A stretch of DNA of 24,908 nt from a virus (IMGVR_UViG_2579778993_000003); one strand, 5' to 3'. Shown: positions 5,363 through 22,567, numbered from the stretch's first letter. A program made the numbers and translations. Notes: generated by a model from the sequence alone, not told the origin.

Positions 5363-5439
5363 TGGCGCGTTGTACTGGATTCGAACCAGTGACCGATTGC
5401 TTAGAAGGCAATTGCTCTGTCCGGCTGAGCTAACAACGC
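5363..5439 (-). tRNA. tRNA-Arg (anticodon UCU)
   Basis: Manual cloverleaf on the minus strand: acceptor GCGTTGT/ACAACGC, D-stem GCTC/GAGC, anticodon stem ATTGC/GCAAT with loop CTTCTAA, T-arm ACTGG-TTCGAAT-CCAGT, discriminator G and encoded CCA. All stems perfect; 77 nt. Confidence 0.9.
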
Positions 5440-5452
5440 AGGATACAGATAA

Positions 5453-5529
5453 TGGACCGCCTTCGGGGACCCGAACTCCGCGCAACCAGCTTCGAAGGCT
5501 GGCGCTCTTTCCTGATGAGCTAATGGCGG
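5453..5529 (-). tRNA. Putative tRNA-Arg (anticodon UCG), slightly degenerate
   Basis: Cloverleaf fits with D-stem GCTC/GAGC, anticodon stem CCAGC/GCTGG with loop CTTCGAA, and encoded CCA. There is one mismatch in the acceptor stem (A-A), one in the T-stem (A-C), and an atypical T-loop TTCGGGT, so it may be a diverged or pseudo tRNA. Confidence 0.55.
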
Positions 5530-5536
5530 TATGTGA

Positions 5537-5612
5537 TGGTGGCCCTTGCTGGATTTGAACCAGCGACCTGGCGATTATGAGTCGCTCGCTCTCACCACTG
5601 AGCTAAAGGGCC
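5537..5612 (-). tRNA. tRNA with CAU anticodon (Met by anticodon; resembles the Ile2/lysidine-type ileX/ileZ class)
   Basis: Minus-strand sequence GGCCCTTTAGCTCAGTGGTGAGAGCGAGCGACTCATAATCGCCAGGTCGCTGGTTCAAATCCAGCAAGGGCCACCA folds as a 76-nt cloverleaf with one A-C mismatch in the anticodon stem. It closely resembles E. coli ileX as I recall it. Confidence 0.85.
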
Positions 5613-10231: not shown

Positions 10232-12496
10232 TTATACGGAAACTGGCACACGAGCAGGCAATGGATAGTGAGCCCAGTTATTAGCATTTAAAGCTCTTAC
10301 GCCATCAGCATAAACTTGTGTTTTTCCATCTAATGATTTTAAAGTTACTACAATAGTTACAGGTAAAGGCTCCATTAAGGCCGGTTCATTCGCTCTCAAC
10401 GTTGTTTTAGCTTGAAGAGCCCAGTTACCCGAAGTAATTCCTTTATTAAATGCCTTGCGATGAATTTTTACTGGTGACCACTTTCCACCATGCTCAATTT
10501 GAGCTCTCTCATATCCAGATTGACCGTTTTCTCCTTCCATAGGTACTTTTCCTTTTATAGTATTATTCTCAATTAAGCCAAAACTTAGCTCTACGTTCGC
10601 GCGAACATATTCACTGCCGGCATTAGGGTTCAGTGGTGGTGCATATGCAGCAGTAATTACAATCTCACCTTTAAATTTTCCATTTTGAATAAGTGCCGAT
10701 GGTATGGGATAGTTTTCCTTTCTCCACCTCACCCCAGGAACCAAGAATGTTTGGAAAATCAGAGTAAACCTATCATCACTATCATATAAGGTCTCAATAA
10801 CCTCATTAGGAATTCCCGCTCCCAAATAGCGTCTTTCACTTGGCGAGTAATCAGGAGAAGATAATTGAGCGGAATGAATTAATAATGCTTTAATCAATGA
10901 TGGTGAAACATTAAAGTCTGAATTAGTGGCTATTCTCTGCCATGTATGCGCAGCTAAACTTGCCACAATTGGAGCAGCAAAACTAGTACCAAAATTAGAG
11001 CAAAGCCTATTATCTGGCCCTACGACCTTTAAACTGCTTGCTCCTACATTCCAAGGTCTATGAACCCCACCGCCAGCATGGATTATATCTGGCTTTGGAG
11101 TAAATACAGGCCCAGGGCCACGACGAGTATATGGTGTCGGTGTTCCAATTTCACTTAAAGCATCATTAGCTTCCATATGAGAAACTGAACCAACTGTTAG
11201 TGCTCGGACTGACTCTCCAGGAGAGGAAATTAAATCAGCACCTCCAAGCGGATCAGGATTTGGCCATGTACGTATAGGTTCATCTACATAATTACCTGCA
11301 GCAACTACAAACAAAATACCAAATTTATCGCTGAGCCGATCTAACTCCATCGCAAAATCACTAAACATCTGCTCATTACATGGTCCGCCTCCCAAAGATA
11401 AATTCCAGACTTTTATATCTGGTCTTTTATTTACAGCATCTGCTAGCCTCAGAATTAAATCTGATATATAAGATCCATTTTCATCTAAAGCACAAACATC
11501 ATGGATTTTAGATTTTGTATCAGGAATCCATGGATGATTGTCATTTAAAAAATGAGCGCCTGATATCAATGAAGACACCATAGTCCCATGTTCATAACTC
11601 GTATCAGGAGGAATTACGTATGTTTCCCTACTCACTACCCAAGGAGTAATTGTTGCCGCGATGGGGCTTACCCCAGTGTCAAATACAGCAACAATGGGTA
11701 ATTCTTCTGATGGTACGGGAAAGCTATTTGTTTCAATGCCAACAGAATCACTTACACTAACCGGGAATGCTGAATATTTTGGTTCTGGAATTAACGTTCT
11801 TATACCCGGGTAATCAATGAGAATGTCTAATATATATCTATCATTTGGGGATAAATCCATTATCCTTAATAAGGGAAGACCACATTTTGGTCTAATCTCA
11901 TCATATTTAACTCCGTGTTGTTCTAATATAGAAATAACGTTTTCATAGTTGTTGTAAGTTGCATCTTCACCTGTGTACTCAAATAGTCGTACAAGGATGT
12001 TTGATGATTCAAACAAACCATCAGTGCCTCCTGGAACCTTCCTATTCTCATCCCAAGGTTCAATGCGCTCAATCGCGCTTAGATTAGCCAAAATCGCTTT
12101 AATATTCCGATGTAAAATGACTGACTCTAATACGTCAAAACAGCCGGCATGAGCAGCAACCAACATTTCATCTATTTTGGCATGACCGGCATTTTGCAAT
12201 CCAGCCTCTTGAGCAATTTTGTTCGGCCTATGCGTTTTGGCTATTCCCTGGTCTCTTAATTTGAAAACCAAAGTACCCAAGCTTCCAGGGTACTCTGAAA
12301 GTTTGGATTCTAAATAATGTTTACTGGTTGTTAAATTTCTTACTAGCCCTTGTCTATATTCGGCTGTTACATCAACCAATACCTTTGCCCCACCGCCAGC
12401 GTTTACTATTGCACCCAAGTCACTACTGGAAAAAGGGATTCTTAACATTGGGTTTGTAACTTTTGCGTTACTAAACTGTGTACCCCTTCTGCTCAT
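10232..12496 (-). CDS. Subtilisin-like serine protease (peptidase S8) with extra N- and C-terminal domains, 754 aa; protease component of an IetAS-like two-gene system
   Basis: Catalytic residues in subtilisin order: Asp in VAVFDTGVS, His in YEHGTMVSS, oxyanion Asn in VVAAGNY, Ser in GTSFAAPIVAS. ATG at 12494-12496 with a GGAG/AGGAG SD inside the 3' end of the upstream ATPase gene (26-bp overlap). A+T-rich relative to neighbouring prophage genes. Confidence 0.9.
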   Translation of the reverse strand: MSRRGTQFSNAKVTNPMLRIPFSSSDLGAIVNAGGGAKVLVDVTAEYRQGLVRNLTTSKHYLESKLSEYPGSLGTLVFKLRDQGIAKTHRPNKIAQEAGLQNAGHAKIDEMLVAAHAGCFDVLESVILHRNIKAILANLSAIERIEPWDENRKVPGGTDGLFESSNILVRLFEYTGEDATYNNYENVISILEQHGVKYDEIRPKCGLPLLRIMDLSPNDRYILDILIDYPGIRTLIPEPKYSAFPVSVSDSVGIETNSFPVPSEELPIVAVFDTGVSPIAATITPWVVSRETYVIPPDTSYEHGTMVSSLISGAHFLNDNHPWIPDTKSKIHDVCALDENGSYISDLILRLADAVNKRPDIKVWNLSLGGGPCNEQMFSDFAMELDRLSDKFGILFVVAAGNYVDEPIRTWPNPDPLGGADLISSPGESVRALTVGSVSHMEANDALSEIGTPTPYTRRGPGPVFTPKPDIIHAGGGVHRPWNVGASSLKVVGPDNRLCSNFGTSFAAPIVASLAAHTWQRIATNSDFNVSPSLIKALLIHSAQLSSPDYSPSERRYLGAGIPNEVIETLYDSDDRFTLIFQTFLVPGVRWRKENYPIPSALIQNGKFKGEIVITAAYAPPLNPNAGSEYVRANVELSFGLIENNTIKGKVPMEGENGQSGYERAQIEHGGKWSPVKIHRKAFNKGITSGNWALQAKTTLRANEPALMEPLPVTIVVTLKSLDGKTQVYADGVRALNANNWAHYPLPARVPVSV

Positions 12497-13625
12497 ATGC
12501 TCCTGACTCCTTCAGAATGTTTGAAATTACTCTTGATGTAAGTTTGTACAAATTAGCAAGAACTCTGATAGAAAATAATTTTTTATCTTTAGAACGTAAC
12601 CAACGAATTTCATCTTCGTAAGTGCTTAAATTTACACCTTCCATAAGCGATTGCGCAAGATACAAACGCCTATACAATTTATGGTGATTTATCACACTTG
12701 CACCTTCAATAACTGCATCCCTACGTGCATCCAAGCTCACCTGTTCAATTATTGCTCCGGATAATCCCTCCGATTTTCTTGATAAATCACTTAAATCTAG
12801 ATCGCTACATATCATATTCTTTAAACGATTTTTCCAAATTAACTCTCTCTGATGTATGTCAGGCAGAGGCATTGGAATTCTGAAGCTAAATCGCCTCCAG
12901 ATTGCAGGATCCAGAAGTTGCTCATGGTTAGTTGAGGCAATAATTACCGTATCCTCTGATGCCGCATCCATATTCTGCAATAGTGAAATGACAACTCGCT
13001 GAAGCTCACCTATATCTCTCTCATTACCTCTTGCTCCAGCTAAAGCATCAAATTCGTCTAAAAAAAGCACTGATGGCCTCTGCATTACATAATCGAAAAC
13101 CTGTCTAAGATTTTTGCTGGTTTGTCCCAATAAACTACTAATCAAAGTATCGCAACGCACTGTAAGAAGTGGAAAATCTAAGCGGGTAGCGATGTACTTA
13201 GATAACATAGTCTTACCTGTTCCTGGCTTTCCATACACGAGCATACGACTCGGCAATGCTGCATCAGCTTTAACAAACTCATCATAACGTTGAACATTAG
13301 TGATAAACTCTTCAACACGGGTACTGATTGCTGCAGGCAGAAAAATCTCTGAACTGTCTAATTTAGGATAACTGACATCAACAGTGTTGAGTCGACTATC
13401 AATATCTACCGGTAATGAGCCCAGAGATATCCCACCTCCAGCCCTTTGAGCTCCTGCCAACGCCTGGGGAGCTCTAAGCAACCTTTCTCTTATCATTCTG
13501 GCTTGCTTGACCTCCCCTTTTTGTTCGAGCTTATCTGCCAGCAACCCAGCATAATTACTAGCCATCGAAGCATTTGCCTTTGTTGCACCTTCAATGATTT
13601 TTAACACTTCTGATAAATAATCCAT
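12471..13625 (-). CDS. Classic AAA-family ATPase, 384 aa; ATPase component of an IetAS-like two-gene system
   Basis: Walker A GKPGTGKT, Walker B VLFLDEFD, and a second-region-of-homology-like segment ASTNHEQLLDPAIWRRFSF with sensor Asn and Arg fingers. ATG at 13623-13625 preceded by GGGAG with a 6-nt spacer, after an AT-rich ~190-bp leader. Confidence 0.9.
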   Translation of the reverse strand: MDYLSEVLKIIEGATKANASMASNYAGLLADKLEQKGEVKQARMIRERLLRAPQALAGAQRAGGGISLGSLPVDIDSRLNTVDVSYPKLDSSEIFLPAAISTRVEEFITNVQRYDEFVKADAALPSRMLVYGKPGTGKTMLSKYIATRLDFPLLTVRCDTLISSLLGQTSKNLRQVFDYVMQRPSVLFLDEFDALAGARGNERDIGELQRVVISLLQNMDAASEDTVIIASTNHEQLLDPAIWRRFSFRIPMPLPDIHQRELIWKNRLKNMICSDLDLSDLSRKSEGLSGAIIEQVSLDARRDAVIEGASVINHHKLYRRLYLAQSLMEGVNLSTYEDEIRWLRSKDKKLFSIRVLANLYKLTSRVISNILKESGAYEQKGYTV

Positions 13626-15049: not shown

Positions 15050-15796
15050 TTACTTCGCAATTCCTGGCTGGACGACATTCGGACGCCAGCTCTCCCAGTT
15101 AAAATTCACCCATAGCCCGCCGTTCATGGTCATGCGATCCATAATCCGCTCGCCGAGCAATGTTTTCATGGCCTCATAGTTCAGGTTTGTCAGCATCCCC
15201 ACGCTGCGCATCGACGCTGTCCGGCGATCAACAATCTGGTGCAGTACCACCTGCTCGTTTTTCGTCTCGCGCTGAATGCCAATTTCATCAAGAACCAGCA
15301 GATCCACTTCGCACAGTTCCCGCAAAAATTTTTCGCCTGACTGCCCATCGTCATAGCTGGCGTGGAGGGCACTCATAACATCAGCCACGGTAACCACAAT
15401 CACTGTCTGACCGTCTTTCAGCAGGCGATTCCCGATAGCTGCTGCTAAGTGGTTCTTCCCGGTACCAGGTTTTCCGCTAAACGCGAAATTTGTGCATCCG
15501 GTCATCAGTTCATCAGCGATAGATTTCGCCTGGCTCAACGCGTATCGCTGACCGTCGTTCTGCACCTGGTAATTCGCAAACGAGCATTTACGGTGCAACG
15601 GCTGGATGCCTGAGCGATTCAGAATTTTTTCCACCCGCAACTGGCGATTCAGGCGGTTGATCTCCTCGCTACGTTTCTGGCCTTCAGCAAGTTGCCACTC
15701 GTGCCACTCCGCTACCGTTCTGAATGGGGCGGTTACATGTGGCGGAGCCAGTCTTCGGATACGTTCAAGAACGCCGCCTGCCGCAATGTTTTTCAT
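15050..15796 (-). CDS. DnaC-like replicative helicase loader (IstB-like AAA+ ATPase)
   Basis: 248 aa, colinear with E. coli DnaC as I recall it: N-terminal MKN..., Walker [19 protein letters not shown], Walker [10 protein letters not shown], and the C-terminal LTNLNYEAM...LGERIMDRM block. Confidence 0.9.
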
Positions 15797-15802
15797 GACA
15801 CG

Positions 15803-16765
15803 TCACCCCCTGAATCCCGGCGGTATTTCAGTGTCCGGTTCAGAAATGTGATTCACGCAACGCTGCGCAGGCAAACGCCCCAGGCGGATAACCAGTTCAT
15901 CCCATTTTTCCCGGAGTTTTGCCGGACTCATGATGTTTTTTACCCAGAACGAATCCCGCTGGAGACGCCCAAACATTTCACAAATTTGTCTGTGAGTTCT
16001 GCCATCCAGCATCCGCATTGTGCGAACGTCATTGGCCCATGCTGTCCAGTTGGGTTCTTTCGGTCTAGTGATCTCGCCATCATAGCTGGCCGCCTGCTCG
16101 TAAAGACTCACGATTCGTCCCCAGATCCACTGTGCGCACACCAAATCTTCCTGACTTCCCCACTGGCGTTTTTTCGCACTGAACACAACCGCGTCAGGGT
16201 GTCGGGTTAAAAAATCCTGTTCAGCCGTCTGCGGGTCCGGTTGCGAAGCGTCCGGACAAGAAGATCTTTTATCTGACGGATCAGGTTTTAATACTGACGG
16301 ATCGGGGTCAATCATCGGCCCCCTAATCGGCAGTTTTTTATCAACAGTTGATCCATCAAAATTTGACGGGTCAACCGTTGAGGGGTCAATATTTGACGGG
16401 TCAACTGTTAACGGGTCATTTTTTGCCGGGCTAATTTTTCTTTTCGGTTTATATGACTCACGCGCCGCCGCCGCAGCTGCTTCGAGTTTTTCCACATTAA
16501 GCCGATAGATATTGCTTACATTACGCCCACCGACCTTACGCTCTTCCTTCGTCAGCCAGCCCTCTTTCGCCAGTTCTGCAATAGCCGATTTCACTGTGGA
16601 TTCACTTCTTGCACCGATCTGACGCCGGATAGTTTCAATGGCAGGCCATGACACGCCCTCGTCATTGCTGTAGTCTGCAAGACGGGCCATAACCGCCACC
16701 CTGGATAAGATCATGCCGGTGAAGGCGCACCCTTCCCAGACAAGACCATGAAGCTTGCTGCTCAT
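15803..16765 (-). CDS. Replication initiator (lambda O-like / YdaU-like) with origin iterons inside the gene
   Basis: Located upstream of the DnaC-like gene. The track ORF starts at a GTG (16778-16780); the first ATG is at 16763-16765. The central part encodes repetitive DPS.../VDPSN... peptide repeats that correspond to tandem DNA repeats. Confidence 0.7.
   Translation of the reverse strand: MSSKLHGLVWEGCAFTGMILSRVAVMARLADYSNDEGVSWPAIETIRRQIGARSESTVKSAIAELAKEGWLTKEERKVGGRNVSNIYRLNVEKLEAAAAAARESYKPKRKISPAKNDPLTVDPSNIDPSTVDPSNFDGSTVDKKLPIRGPMIDPDPSVLKPDPSDKRSSCPDASQPDPQTAEQDFLTRHPDAVVFSAKKRQWGSQEDLVCAQWIWGRIVSLYEQAASYDGEITRPKEPNWTAWANDVRTMRMLDGRTHRQICEMFGRLQRDSFWVKNIMSPAKLREKWDELVIRLGRLPAQRCVNHISEPDTEIPPGFRG
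16270..16437. repeat. Iteron array (putative replication origin) inside the initiator gene
   Basis: Tandem ~15-bp repeats of consensus TTGACGGGTCAAC-like sequence (for example tttgacgggtcaaccg 16362-16377, ttgaggggtcaatat 16378-16392, ttgacgggtcaactg 16393-16407, ttaacgggtcatttt 16408-16422), preceded by more degenerate copies (ctgacggatcagg, tgacggatcgggg) and followed by an A+T-rich stretch. Confidence 0.6.
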
Positions 16766-16787
16766 AAACCCCCCGAACACCGTGCTT

Positions 16788-17213
16788 TTAGTGCATCACC
16801 ACAGCATTCCCTGCCGGGCCGCCGCGATTCATCTGGTCATACAAAACAACCGCTGACGCAACAAAATCATCGACATCCTTCACCAGCCGATCCCTCCGTT
16901 CGACGATCTCACGGTAATATTCAGAACTGTGGCTGCGCATACGGGCCACCAGCAAAGGCGGCATCGCCTTTTCGATCGCCGGTAACAGAGCCTGCATTTT
17001 TTCAACAGCATCAGGGGTGTCTTTATCCAGCCAACGGAAAATTTTCTGGGTATTACGGGCCAGGGCTTCCGGATGGCTGTCGTCATACAGTTCCGGGAAC
17101 GTCATTCCCAGCTCGAAATACGCTTTGGTAATTTTCGCAGCCGGCACTTTTTCGCCGTCCGGATGCGCCCAGACATTCATCGCCATGCGGATGTGTTCAT
17201 GCTTGATTTTCAT
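16788..17213 (-). CDS. YdaT-like prophage protein (DUF1441-type), 141 aa
   Basis: N-terminus MKIKHEHI... matches my recollection of Rac YdaT. ATG at 17211-17213 with an AGGAG SD; sits downstream of a Cro-like gene as in the Rac ydaS-ydaT pair. Confidence 0.6.
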   Translation of the reverse strand: MKIKHEHIRMAMNVWAHPDGEKVPAAKITKAYFELGMTFPELYDDSHPEALARNTQKIFRWLDKDTPDAVEKMQALLPAIEKAMPPLLVARMRSHSSEYYREIVERRDRLVKDVDDFVASAVVLYDQMNRGGPAGNAVVMH

Positions 17214-17478: not shown

Positions 17479-17505
17479 AGCTACTCCTTAGTAAACACAG
17501 CAAAG

Positions 17506-17543
17506 AATACCCACAGGTAAACAAAAGTCAATACCCACAGGTT
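17506..17543. promoter_or_regulatory. Two direct copies of a 13-bp operator-like site (AATACCCACAGGT) in the divergent repressor/cro promoter region
   Basis: Copies at 17506-17518 and 17531-17543, centres 25 bp apart. A candidate leaderless repressor promoter (-10 TATTAT 17567-17572, -35-like TTTACC 17545-17550) places the transcription start at or next to the repressor ATG (17579). Confidence 0.5.
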
Positions 17544-20095: not shown

Positions 20096-22567
20096 ATGAG
20101 TAAAGTCTTTATTTGCGCCGCCATTCCGGACGAACAGGCAATAAAGGAAGAAGGTGCCGTCGCTGTAGCCACTGCCATTGAAGCCGGTGATGAACGTCGC
20201 GCCCGCGCAAAATTTCACTGGCAATTCCTGGAACATTATCCGGCTGCTCAGGACTGCGCTTATAAATTTCTTGTCTGCGAGGATAAACCCGGTATACCCC
20301 GCCCTGCCCTCGATTCCTGGGATGCTGAATATATGCAGGAAAACCGCTGGGATGAGGAGTCTGCTTCCTTTGTCCCGGTTGAGACTGAATCCGATCCGAT
20401 GAACGTCACTTTTGACAAGCTGGCCCCTGAAGTACAGAACGCTGTCATGGTTAAGTTCGACACATGTGAAAACATCACCGTTGATATGGTTATTAGCGCA
20501 CAGGAATTGTTGCAGGAAGACATGGCAACATTCGACGGCCATATCGTTGAAGCGTTGATGAAAATGCCAGAAGTTAACGCCATGTATCCGGAGCTTAAGC
20601 TGCATGCCATCGGGTGGGTTAAGCATAAATGTAAGCCTGGTGCCAAATGGCCCGAAATTCAGGCAGAGATGCGCATCTGGAAAAAACGTCGCGAAGGTGA
20701 ACGCAAGGAAACCGGAAAATACACGTCTGTTGTTGATCTCGCCCGCGCCAGAACCAATCAACAGCACAGTGAAAATTCAACAGGAAAAATCAGCCCGGTC
20801 ATTGCTGCCATTCATCGCGAATACAAGCAGACATGGAAAACACTGGATGACGAACTGGCCTACGCTCTCTGGCCTGGTGATGTGGATGCCGGAAACATTG
20901 ACGGCAGCATCCATCGCTGGGCAAAAAATGAAGTTATCGACAACGACCGCGAAGACTGGAAGCGTATCTCGGCATCAATGCGCAAACAGCCTGATGCCCT
21001 TCGCTACGACCGCCAGACTATTTTTGGCCTTGTCCGTGAACGTCCGATCGACATTCACAAAGACCCTGTGGCACTGAACAAATACATTACTGGATACCTG
21101 ACTACAAAGGGCGTGTTTGAAGATGAAGGAAGAAATCAGAGCGCAACTGATACTCTCTCGTCGCCAGTACCAGAAACTGATGCAGTGGAAACGGCAATTC
21201 CGGGCAACGAAAAAACCGAATGCAAAGTGGAAGTCGAACCATCTGTAGAGCGTGAGGGGCCGTTCTACTTCCTCTTCACCGACAAGGATGGCGAAAAATA
21301 CGGTCGCGCAAACAAACTTTCTGGTCTGGAAAAAGCACTAGCCTTGGGAGCTACGGAAATCACAAAAGAGGAATACTTCGCACGTAAAAACGGCACGTAC
21401 TCAGGTTCACAACAAAATACTGGTGCATCTGACACGACCGCACAACCAGAGCCGGTAAAAGTTACCGCTGACGAAGTAAACAAAATTATGCAGGCAGCCA
21501 ATATCAGCCAGCCTGACGCCGATAAGTTGCTTGCTGCCTCTCGCGGAGAATTTGTTGCAGGGATTAGCGACCCGAATGATCCGAAATGGGTAAAGGGGAT
21601 TGAAACCCGCGATTCTGTAAACCAGAACCAGCAAGAATCGGAACAGAACGACCAGAAAGCGGAACAAAACAGCCCAAATACGCAACAAAACGAGCCAGAA
21701 ACGAAACAACCTGAGCCAGTAGCGCAACAGGAACCGGAAAAAGTCTGCACCGCCTGCGGTCAAAGCGGTGGCGGCAACTGCCCTGATTGTGGCGCGGTGA
21801 TGGGTGACGCAACATACCAGGAAACATTCGATGAAGAGAATCAGGTTGAAGTTCAGGAAAATGATCCGAAGGAAATCGAAGGCGCTGAACATCCACACAA
21901 GGAGAATGCTGGTAGCGCTCAGGATCACGCCAGCGATAGTGAAACTGGCGAGACGGCAGATCCCTTAATTGCGATGAACGGTCATCACGTTATCACATCC
22001 ACCAGCAGGACGTGTGACCATCTAATGATCGACCTTGAAACCATGGGAAAAAATCCTGATGCCCCGATTATCTCAATAGGTGCAATATTTTTCGATCCGC
22101 AAACCGGAGATATGGGACCGGAATTTAGTAAGACTATCGATCTGGAAACTGCTGGCGGAGTCATTGATCGTGACGTCATTAAAAGGTGGCTGAAGCAATC
22201 ACGTGAAGCGCAGTCTGCCATTATGACCGATGAAATCCCGTTAGATGATGCACTGTTACAATTGCGGGAATTTATCGACGAAAACTCCGGTGAATTTTTT
22301 GTTCAGGTCTGGGGAAATGGAGCCAACTTCGACAACACGATTTTGCGCCGTTCATACGAACGGCAGGGGATCCCCTGCCCGTGGCGTTACTACAACGATC
22401 GCGATGTACGCACAATCGTTGAGCTGGGGAAAGCCATAGACTTCGATGCCAGAACGGCTATTCCATTCGAAGGTGAGCGCCATAATGCACTTGATGACGC
22501 CCGTTACCAGGCAAAATACGTTTCAGTTATCTGGCAAAAACTGATCCCGAATCAGGCTGATTTTTAA
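20096..22567 (+). CDS. Large prophage exonuclease (823 aa) with C-terminal DnaQ-like DEDDh 3'-5' exonuclease domain, Q/E-rich linker and CxxC...CxxC zinc-ribbon-like motif
   Basis: ATG at 20096. C-terminal motifs Exo I ([10 protein letters not shown]), Exo II ([12 protein letters not shown]) and Exo III ([14 protein letters not shown]). Low-complexity linker [41 protein letters not shown] followed by [16 protein letters not shown]. It occupies the recE position of Rac-like prophages, but no recT-like gene follows. Confidence 0.8.

What the first reader, a model, noticed from the sequence alone, without database searches (positions are those of the whole stretch)
16270..16437. Iteron array and AT-rich stretch inside the initiator gene (lambda-type ori architecture)
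At least six tandem ~15-bp TTGACGGGTCAAC-like repeats lie within the O-like gene, translating as repetitive DPS/VDPSN peptide units, followed by an A+T-rich stretch. This is the hallmark of an origin embedded in the initiator gene. It suggests the replication module is intact, so the element might replicate on induction even though lysis/morphogenesis may be damaged.
Basis: partly seen in the sequence, partly recalled or inferred. Interest (0 to 1): 0.45.

Follow-up and report, generated by a model that had tools for sequence, protein, structure and literature searches.

The report
Prophage replication origin inside initiator gene
A run of 15-base palindromic repeats in the middle of a prophage's replication-initiator gene is held constant at the DNA level in many bacterial genera, so it is most likely the prophage's replication origin, built like phage lambda's; this is an expected kind of feature, in a common initiator family whose origin I found no description of.

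Summary
The repeats are real. Five clear 15-bp units (window 16346-16420, core TTGACCCGTCAA on the coding strand) lie in exact register, with a decayed unit at each end. Three related sites follow in a GATC-bearing block (16259-16312). All lie in the initiator gene (15803-16765, minus strand), in the part that encodes a predicted disordered linker. That linker joins a winged-helix N-domain (Pfam HTH_36) to a C-domain 36% identical to that of lambda O. A full-length DnaC-like loader gene follows.

The decisive result is comparative. In about 80 homologous genes from many enterobacterial genera, the same part of the gene carries 15-bp repeats with fixed synonymous codons. Ser is TCA in 92% of cases against 16% elsewhere in these genes. 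The commonest codon takes 0.84-0.96 of sequences in the linker against 0.50-0.67 in both flanking domains. This argues strongly against a purely protein-level repeat.

The position corresponds to ori-lambda. The A+T-rich stretch is only modest: 70% over 40 bp, like phi80, against 80% in lambda. Binding and replication are untested.

Verdict: a lambda-type origin; a new member of a known kind, of moderate interest. The module occurs in 28% of complete E. coli genomes.

The parts
15803..16765 (-). Replication initiator gene (320 aa from the PGAP start; the ORF runs on to a GTG at 16780)
   Evidence: ORF list. Annotated CDS in a 100%-identical genome. PHROG 391 'replication initiation O-like', E 2.8e-114, end to end.
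16454..16765 (-). Codes for the N-terminal winged-helix domain (aa 1-104), the presumed iteron-binding domain
   Evidence: Pfam HTH_36, E 2.2e-6, above the cut-off. Confident AlphaFold2 model with helices and a two-strand wing. Only generic winged-helix matches in the PDB.
16220..16447 (-). Codes for the predicted disordered linker (aa 107-182); this segment holds all the origin-like DNA elements
   Evidence: pLDDT below 50 for residues 107-182. Island of synonymous-codon fixity in homologues.
16346..16420 (-). Array of five 15-bp units with the palindromic core TTGACCCGTCAA (putative iterons)
   Evidence: A near-identical prophage differs by a 30-bp (two-unit) indel here.
16421..16435 (-). 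Decayed unit on the upstream side (ATTAGCCCGGCAAAA, 10 of 15 bases match)
   Evidence: Read from the sequence.
16331..16345 (-). Decayed unit on the downstream side (GTTGATAAAAAACTG), which starts an A-tract
   Evidence: Read from the sequence.
16325..16364 (.). The most A+T-rich 40 bp of the gene (70%; 77% over 30 bp), at the downstream end of the array; a candidate unwinding region
   Evidence: Lambda O reaches 80% and phi80 gene 15 reaches 70% by the same measure.
16259..16312 (-). Conserved block TTGACCCC-GATCCGTCAG-N11-GATCCGTCAG-ATAAAAGATCT, with three GATC sites (16263, 16279, 16300)
   Evidence: Codons in this block are 91-100% identical across 79 homologues. It aligns with the A+T-rich part of lambda O.
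16228..16264 (.). Short palindromes downstream of the block (GTCCGGAC at 16250-16257; an imperfect 13-nt inverted repeat)
   Evidence: They are weak. They lie where ori-lambda has its right-arm palindrome.
15875..16219 (-). Codes for the C-terminal domain homologous to that of lambda O and of phi80 gp15
   Evidence: BLASTP: 36% identity, E 7e-26 to lambda O; 36%, E 1e-25 to phi80 gp15.
15806..15880 (-). Codes for a C-terminal tail that matches the tail of host DnaT (...SEPDTEIPPGFRG)
15050..15796 (-). DnaC-like helicase-loader gene (ydaV), 7 bp downstream of the initiator gene
   Evidence: NCBIfam PRK12377, positions 1-248 of 248, E 1.9e-152; DnaC model E 1.4e-92, 309.8 bits, below that model's 357-bit cut-off. 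PHROG 50.
17504..17531 (-). pR-like promoter match that would drive cro-like, ydaT, initiator and loader genes through the origin
   Evidence: Consensus scan, 9 of 12. A consensus match only; function is inferred.

Best explanation
The segment 16228-16435 is the replication origin of this lambdoid prophage, embedded in the linker-coding part of its initiator gene.

Proposed mechanism:
1. After derepression, transcription from the pR-like promoter expresses the cro-like, YdaT-like, initiator and DnaC-like genes and passes through the origin.
2. Dimers of the initiator's winged-helix N-domain bind the palindromic 12-mers of the 15-bp array and the related sites just downstream.
3. This nucleoprotein complex destabilises the adjacent, moderately A+T-rich, GATC-bearing conserved block.
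4. The lambda-O-like C-domain and the DnaT-like tail recruit the phage DnaC-like loader with host DnaB.

Shown here:
- the anatomy of the repeats;
- DNA-level selection on the array and the block;
- the domain homologies;
- correspondence in position with ori-lambda.

Inferred: binding of the initiator, the site of unwinding, recruitment of the loader, and replication itself.
For: - **Repeats.** Palindromic 15-bp units lie in exact register, and only here in 24.9 kb.
- **Position.** They lie in a predicted disordered linker between a winged-helix domain and a domain 36% identical to the C-domain of lambda O. The protein alignment with lambda O starts exactly where lambda's A+T-rich region is encoded.
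- **Precedent.** phi80 gene 15 carries annotated gp15-binding sites at the same relative place.
- **Loader and promoter.** A full-length DnaC-like loader gene follows, and a pR-like promoter lies upstream.
- **Codon fixity in the repeats.** In homologues from many genera, units of subfamily B use Ser TCA in 270 of 293 cases (16% in the rest of these genes), Ser TCT in 192 of 224 (9%), and Lys AAA in 191 of 191 (62%). The central codon of the unit is free. Amino-acid changes keep the bases (TCA to CCA or TTA).
- **A bounded island.** The commonest codon takes 0.92 of sequences in the block against 0.51 in the N-domain (p = 2e-8). Along 47 genes with a different C-domain the value is 0.84-0.96 in the linker only, and 0.50-0.67 on both sides.
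- **Co-inheritance.** The N-domain, array and block stay together while the segment after the block and the next gene vary. This fits origin specificity residing in the N-domain.
- **Copy number.** It varies in whole units among close relatives, as iteron number does between lambda (4) and Stx phages (6) (PMC7466680).
Against: - No experiment on any member of this initiator family turned up. A 2022 survey says nothing is known about how such replication units work (PMC8951638).
- There is no strongly A+T-rich unwinding element (70% against 80% in lambda).
- The 15-bp spacing (1.4 helical turns) is unlike the roughly 20-24 bp spacing of the lambda and phi80 iterons.
- Intact homologues have as few as two units.
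- Synonymous fixity could partly reflect concerted evolution of repeats, recent exchange at a module junction, or mRNA structure.
- The codon counts treat related units and related loci as independent.
Confidence: 0.8

Rival explanations
1. The repeats are only a protein feature. They encode a slippage-prone pentapeptide repeat in a disordered linker and have no function as DNA.
For: The segment is predicted to be disordered. Copy number changes in 5-aa steps among close relatives, as expected for replication slippage in any tandem repeat.
Against: Synonymous positions are fixed across genera, while the same genes' folded domains have diverged at synonymous sites. The central residue of each unit is free (P, A, T, G, V or R) although its neighbours keep a single codon. 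Amino-acid changes preserve the bases. The unit is a DNA palindrome, which a protein repeat does not need.
Confidence: 0.06
2. The array and block are a DNA element bound by the initiator or a host factor, but they serve autoregulation, copy control or exclusion of related phages, or act as a recombination junction. The true start site of replication is elsewhere.
For: The analysis shows DNA-level selection, not initiation. The block sits exactly at the junction where the downstream segment is exchanged. There is no strong A+T-rich element. In lambda, cloned iterons inhibit replication of related phages (abstract of PMC3349717, seen).
Against: The motif has no second cluster anywhere in the window. 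The position corresponds to a proven origin in lambda and to the annotated gp15 sites of phi80. In lambda, the origin and the regulatory effects of the iterons coincide rather than exclude each other.
Confidence: 0.09
3. Selection acts on an mRNA hairpin formed by the palindromic array, affecting translation or stability of the initiator message.
For: The RNA of 16325-16440 folds at -37.7 kcal/mol, z-score -7.3 against shuffles.
Against: Any tandem array of palindromes folds this way. What is conserved across genera is the sequence itself (TGAC-NNN-TCA and the GATC block), not pairing kept through compensating changes. The number of units varies, which changes the fold. No Rfam family matches.
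Confidence: 0.03

Closest known systems
ori-lambda inside gene O, with the O and P proteins
   Same: Direct repeats with internal dyad symmetry lie in the middle of the initiator gene and encode an inter-domain linker. An A-rich stretch lies on the downstream side. The C-terminal domain is homologous (36% identity). A helicase-loader gene follows. The whole unit lies downstream of cro and cII analogues (PMC7466680).
   Different: The N-terminal DNA-binding domain is Pfam HTH_36, with no match to the lambda O N-domain. Units are 15 bp apart rather than 19-bp iterons about 23-24 bp apart. The A+T-rich part is 70% rather than 80%. The loader is DnaC-like, not P. The initiator carries a DnaT-like tail.
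Phage phi80 gene 15, with four annotated gp15-binding sites inside the gene
   Same: The architecture is the same and the A+T content comparable (70% over 40 bp). The C-domain is 36% identical. Both have the words AAAAGATCT and KRSS just after the origin repeats.
   Different: The phi80 sites are 20-21 bp apart, have a different sequence (TTCCCGAAAACGG-like) and encode 7-aa repeats. gp15 shows no N-terminal similarity to this initiator. Its partner gp14 is annotated as similar to lambda P.
Origins of Stx phages 933W and P27 (six iterons)
   Same: Iteron number differs between related origins, and the added iterons matter for replication (PMC7466680). Here copy number runs from 2 to 7 among close relatives.
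   Different: Those phages use true lambda-type O proteins and iterons.
Eru8 and Eru11 replication units of Stx phages (Fagerlund et al. 2022, PMC8951638)
   Same: A YdaT-family gene and an HTH_36 protein gene lie next to the repressor gene, as described for these units.
   Different: That paper defines the units by gene content only, names no origin, and states that the replication mechanism is unknown. I did not compare the window with its reference phages by sequence.
Rac prophage oriJ region (YdaU-YdaV)
   Same: The DnaC-like YdaV (about 93% DNA identity), YdaW and the last residues of the initiator (IPPGFRG) are shared.
   Different: The Rac-type YdaU is an unrelated protein without the 15-bp repeats. 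The origin proposed here is therefore not oriJ.
Iteron plasmids (F, R6K, pSC101, P1)
   Same: Tandem initiator-binding repeats lie next to an unwinding region, and the initiator is a winged-helix protein.
   Different: In those plasmids the iterons are about 17-22 bp, phased with the DNA helix, and lie outside the rep gene; the Rep proteins belong to other families (general knowledge). No plasmid Rep family matched here.

Membership tests
Lambda-type origin (origin embedded in the initiator gene) | Four or more direct repeats with internal dyad symmetry inside the initiator ORF | tested here: met
   Five clear units and two decayed ones, with the core TTGACCCGTCAA palindromic in 5 of 6 pairs.
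Lambda-type origin (origin embedded in the initiator gene) | The repeats lie in the segment that encodes the linker between the DNA-binding N-domain and the loader-recruiting C-domain | tested here: met
   pLDDT is below 50 for aa 107-182, between two confident domains. The alignment with lambda O starts at aa 153.
Lambda-type origin (origin embedded in the initiator gene) | A strongly A+T-rich unwinding region next to the repeats on the downstream side | tested here: inconclusive
   The gene's A+T maximum does abut the array on that side, but it is 70% over 40 bp. phi80 also reaches 70% and lambda 80%.
Lambda-type origin (origin embedded in the initiator gene) | The DNA element is under selection independent of the coding function | tested here: met
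   The commonest codon takes 0.84-0.96 of sequences in the linker against 0.50-0.67 in the flanking domains.
Lambda-type origin (origin embedded in the initiator gene) | A helicase-loader gene lies immediately downstream of the initiator gene | tested here: met
   A DnaC-like gene lies 7 bp downstream and matches its model over its full length. It is of the DnaC type, not the P type.
Lambda-type origin (origin embedded in the initiator gene) | The initiator binds the repeats, and the fragment supports replication | not testable with these tools
   This needs gel-shift or footprinting assays and a plasmid replication assay.
Lambda O protein family | An N-terminal DNA-binding domain of the lambda O type | tested here: not met
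   Pfam finds HTH_36 only. BLASTP against lambda O and phi80 gp15 aligns only the C-terminal halves.
Lambda O protein family | A C-terminal domain homologous to that of lambda O | tested here: met
   36% identity over 141 aa, E 7e-26.
Plasmid iteron replicons (Rep_3-type initiators) | An initiator of a plasmid Rep family, with iterons outside the rep gene and phased with the helix | tested here: not met
   No plasmid Rep family matched in Pfam. The repeats lie inside the gene at 15-bp spacing.
Rac oriJ / YdaU-type replication module | An initiator homologous to the Rac-type YdaU | tested here: not met
   The Rac-type YdaU (L165) has a different sequence and no 15-bp repeats. Only the last residues and the loader are shared.
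Eru8/Eru11 replication units of Stx phages | A YdaT-family gene and an HTH_36 gene next to the repressor gene | tested here: met
   Pfam YdaT_toxin (16788-17213) and HTH_36 (initiator); definition from PMC8951638. Sequence identity to the reference phages was not tested.

The most novel reading that the evidence does not exclude
This initiator family may open DNA in a way that differs from lambda.

- Tightly packed palindromic sites every 15 bp would place successive dimers on nearly opposite faces of the helix.
- There is no true A+T-rich element.
- The most strictly conserved DNA is a GATC-bearing block, which might put initiation under Dam methylation and SeqA control.
- The initiator ends in a copy of the host DnaT tail, which might plug it directly into the host DnaB-DnaC or restart primosome machinery.

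Together these would make a distinct class of phage origin, present in more than a quarter of complete E. coli genomes and in some Stx phages.
Probability: 0.12. Interest if true: 0.6.

Novelty: new member of a known kind. Interest (0 to 1): 0.35.

Why it matters
The N-domain plus origin module is in 1521 of 5426 complete E. coli genomes, including O157:H7, O104:H4 and O127:H6 strains. Similar initiators occur in prophages across Enterobacterales. Replication units with this gene content have been catalogued in Shiga-toxin phages with the remark that nothing is known about how they replicate (PMC8951638), and phage replication affects toxin output (PMC7466680).

Pinpointing a candidate origin and its recognition motif gives a direct target for binding and replication assays. 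It also helps prophage annotation and the reading of sequencing-depth peaks after induction. It is a clean example of a cis-acting DNA element detectable by a bounded island of synonymous-codon fixity inside a gene.

It does not change how lambdoid replication is understood.

Tried and rejected
- **Rac oriJ.** The window looked Rac-like (YdaS, YdaT and YdaV families), so I tested whether this is oriJ. The Rac-type YdaU is an unrelated initiator without the repeats. A literature search for oriJ gave only passing mentions, and a second search gave noise.
- **phi80 gp15 relationship.** One homologue is named 'Replication protein 15', which suggested a phi80 relative. Only the C-domain is shared.
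- **Near-identical relatives.** The scan of viral contigs returned only 99-100% identical copies, useless for divergence analysis.
- **RNA families.** Only chance-level microRNA matches caused by the palindromes.
- **DnaA boxes.** 23 matches against 22.8 expected, with no cluster at the array.
- **Antisense promoter in the TTGACG repeats.** The promoter scan found none.
- **Solved structures.** By sequence, only the DnaT tail matched. By fold, only generic winged-helix regulators matched, at weak E-values; this gives no specific functional lead.
- **Literature search for the motif sequences.** Only unrelated hits.
- **Plasmids using this module as sole replicon.** One 16-kb circular record looks like a lambda-dv-type circle. 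Its ydaT and initiator genes are split by frameshifts, so it may be an assembly artefact. I do not use it as evidence.
- **Clustering of C-terminal domains.** It lumped almost all sequences together and was uninformative. Only the diversity of the next gene was usable.

Full report
**Context.** The window is part of a lambdoid prophage of Escherichia coli, integrated beside ompW. It is 100% identical to strain 102651 over the tested 2.6 kb. On the minus strand the gene order is:

- a pR-like promoter match (17531-17504);
- a cro-like gene;
- a YdaT-family gene (16788-17213);
- the initiator gene (15803-16765);
- a DnaC-like gene (15050-15796);
- DUF1627 and DUF977 genes.

A repressor-like gene is transcribed divergently from 17579.

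**The observation.** Tandem Repeats Finder and the repeat finder both report a 15-bp periodic array at 16341-16439, and the 30-bp period scores better. On the coding strand there are five clear units between 16420 and 16346, encoding NDPLT, VDPSN, IDPST, VDPSN and FDGST. A decayed unit lies on each side. The core TTGACCCGTCAA is a near-perfect palindrome and, with up to two mismatches, occurs nowhere else in 24.9 kb. A looser core gives 5 hits against 0.38 expected. Downstream in the gene lie a half-site (TTGACCCC) and two copies of GATCCGTCAG 21 bp apart, at 16294-16303 and 16273-16282, followed by AAAAGATCT. 'At least six' therefore holds only if decayed or related sites are counted; five units are clear.

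**The A+T-rich stretch.** It is modest. The gene's A+T maximum abuts the downstream end of the array (16325-16364, 70% over 40 bp; 77% over 30 bp). By the same measure lambda O reaches 80% and phi80 gene 15 reaches 70%.

**The protein.**
- It matches PHROG 391 'replication initiation O-like' end to end.
- Its N-terminus matches Pfam HTH_36.
- An AlphaFold2 model gives a confident winged-helix domain (aa 1-104), a low-confidence segment (aa 107-182) and a confident helical C-domain (aa 183-297).
- Fold search finds only generic winged-helix regulators, among them MarR, ArsR and PadR families, at weak E-values.
- The C-domain is 36% identical to those of lambda O (E 7e-26) and phi80 gp15 (E 1e-25). 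The N-domains do not align.
- The alignment with lambda O begins at residue 153 here and residue 145 in O, the point where O is encoded by the A+T-rich part of ori-lambda.
- The array and the GATC block thus occupy the place of lambda's iterons and A+T-rich region. phi80 has annotated gp15-binding sites at the same relative place.
- The next gene matches the NCBIfam DnaC-like model PRK12377 over its full length.

- A scan of one genome per species returned 80 loci with homologous initiators from Edwardsiella, Erwinia, Morganella, Providencia, Proteus, Pantoea, Enterobacter, Kluyvera, Rahnella, Yersinia and others, at 34-74% amino-acid identity.
- Nearly all carry 5-aa (15-bp) repeats at the same place. 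The window's subfamily has GAC-CCn-TCA-Ann-nTT. The larger subfamily has TCA-AAA-TCT-GAC-nnn. Both share the core TGAC-NNN-TCA.
- Codon choice in the units is almost fixed: Ser TCA 270 of 293 (16% elsewhere in the same genes), Ser TCT 192 of 224 (9%), Lys AAA 191 of 191 (62%). In the window's subfamily, Ser is TCA in 21 of 21, Val GTT in 18 of 18 and Ile ATT in 16 of 16.
- The central codon is free (Pro, Ala, Thr, Gly, Val, Arg). Replacements of the Ser keep two of the three bases (CCA, TTA).
- Downstream, the block GGGGATCCGTCAGTAAAyTCAAAACAAGATCCATCAGATAAAAAAC is nearly invariant as DNA. There the commonest codon takes a mean 0.92 of sequences, against 0.51 at conserved residues of the N-domain (p = 2e-8).
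- In 47 genes that share a different C-domain, this measure is 0.50-0.67 through both folded domains and 0.84-0.96 only across the array and block, with sharp edges.
- Asp is always GAT in the block, which keeps GATC, but mostly GAC in the array.

A purely protein-level repeat does not predict any of this. My counts treat related units and loci as independent, so the p-value is indicative only. The within-gene contrast is the robust part.

**Modularity.** The N-domain, array and block travel together, while the next gene varies. The segment after the block also varies. In Proteus and Providencia members the DNA after the block reads like the right arm of ori-lambda and phi80. Co-inheritance of binding domain and repeats is what origin specificity predicts. 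Among near-identical E. coli prophages the array differs by whole units: a 30-bp indel in strain TUM10008, and protein lengths of 305, 310, 315, 320 and 330 aa.

**Rivals.**
- An mRNA hairpin is possible in principle (z-score -7.3). However, any array of palindromes folds, what is conserved is sequence rather than pairing, and no RNA family matches.
- A regulatory or exclusion role of the same sites is not excluded and would probably coexist with origin function, as in lambda.
- The motif has no second cluster in the window.
- DnaA boxes are at chance level, and the scan found no promoter inside the array.

**What it is not.** It is not oriJ of Rac. The Rac-type YdaU is a different protein without these repeats and shares only the last residues and the YdaV loader. 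It is not a member of the lambda O family by its N-domain, although it works like one by architecture.

**Known or new?** The architecture is textbook for lambdoid phages (PMC7466680). I found no description of an origin or of iterons for this HTH_36 initiator family. The motif sequences give no relevant hits. A survey of Stx-phage replication units lists YdaT plus HTH_36 gene pairs (Eru8, Eru11) and states that nothing is known about the proteins involved in their replication (PMC8951638). The literature tool covers open-access papers only, so older descriptions could have been missed. The N-domain plus origin module is common, in 1521 of 5426 complete E. coli genomes.

**Verdict.** It is a new member of a known kind. 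The unusual details are the 15-bp phasing, the weak A+T-rich element, the conserved GATC block and the DnaT-like tail. Confidence that this is the origin is 0.8. Interest is moderate, at 0.35.

Noticed in passing
window 15806-15880 (minus strand); L165 3804-4592: The last 25 residues of the initiator (VNHISEPDTEIPPGFRG) match the C-terminal tail of host DnaT (PDB 2ru8, 6aep, 9zbt). The unrelated Rac-type YdaU initiator ends in the same IPPGFRG and also precedes a YdaV loader gene. The tail therefore seems to travel with the DnaC-like loader and may be its docking peptide.
   Followed up: partly
L168 (NZ_CP148542.1, whole record): A 15,977-bp circular 'plasmid' record of E. coli consists only of the repressor, cro, ydaT, initiator, ydaV, nin, Q and lysis part of such a prophage, and no plasmid replicon is typed for it. 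Its ydaT and initiator genes are split by frameshifts. It could be a lambda-dv-like circle, a product of in-situ over-replication, or an assembly artefact.
   Followed up: partly
L094-L100, about 30 codons after the GATC block: In Proteus and Providencia homologues, the DNA after the conserved block reads TCGTCGCAGAATTCTGACGAATCC, close to the right arm of ori-lambda and phi80. This suggests that modules are exchanged at a junction inside the origin.
   Followed up: partly
L162-L164 (Providencia, Proteus), codons about 135-165: A third lineage amplifies a different sub-element, a 33-bp unit (GGTTTTCACCCTCCAGAATCTGGCGTTCAAGGG, encoding FHPPESGVQGG), instead of the 15-bp unit.
   Followed up: no
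window about 10232-13625: An IteA/IteS anti-phage ATPase and S8 peptidase pair sits between the replication genes and the nin region, according to the annotation of the identical genome.
   Followed up: no
window about 5363-5612: Three tRNA genes (Arg, Arg, Ile) lie downstream of the Q antiterminator gene (on its transcribed strand), between the adjacent DNA-methyltransferase gene and the lysis genes, as is typical of Stx-like lambdoid prophages.
   Followed up: no
window 21626-21729: A 21-bp tandem repeat (4-5 copies, 72-73% matches) lies inside the large gene with a 3'-5' exonuclease domain.
   Followed up: no
window 1-24908 versus L001: The holin, lysozyme and Rz-like lysis genes, the Q antiterminator, integrase and excisionase are annotated without pseudogene flags in the 100%-identical genome, and a terminase gene lies just beyond the window.
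   Followed up: partly
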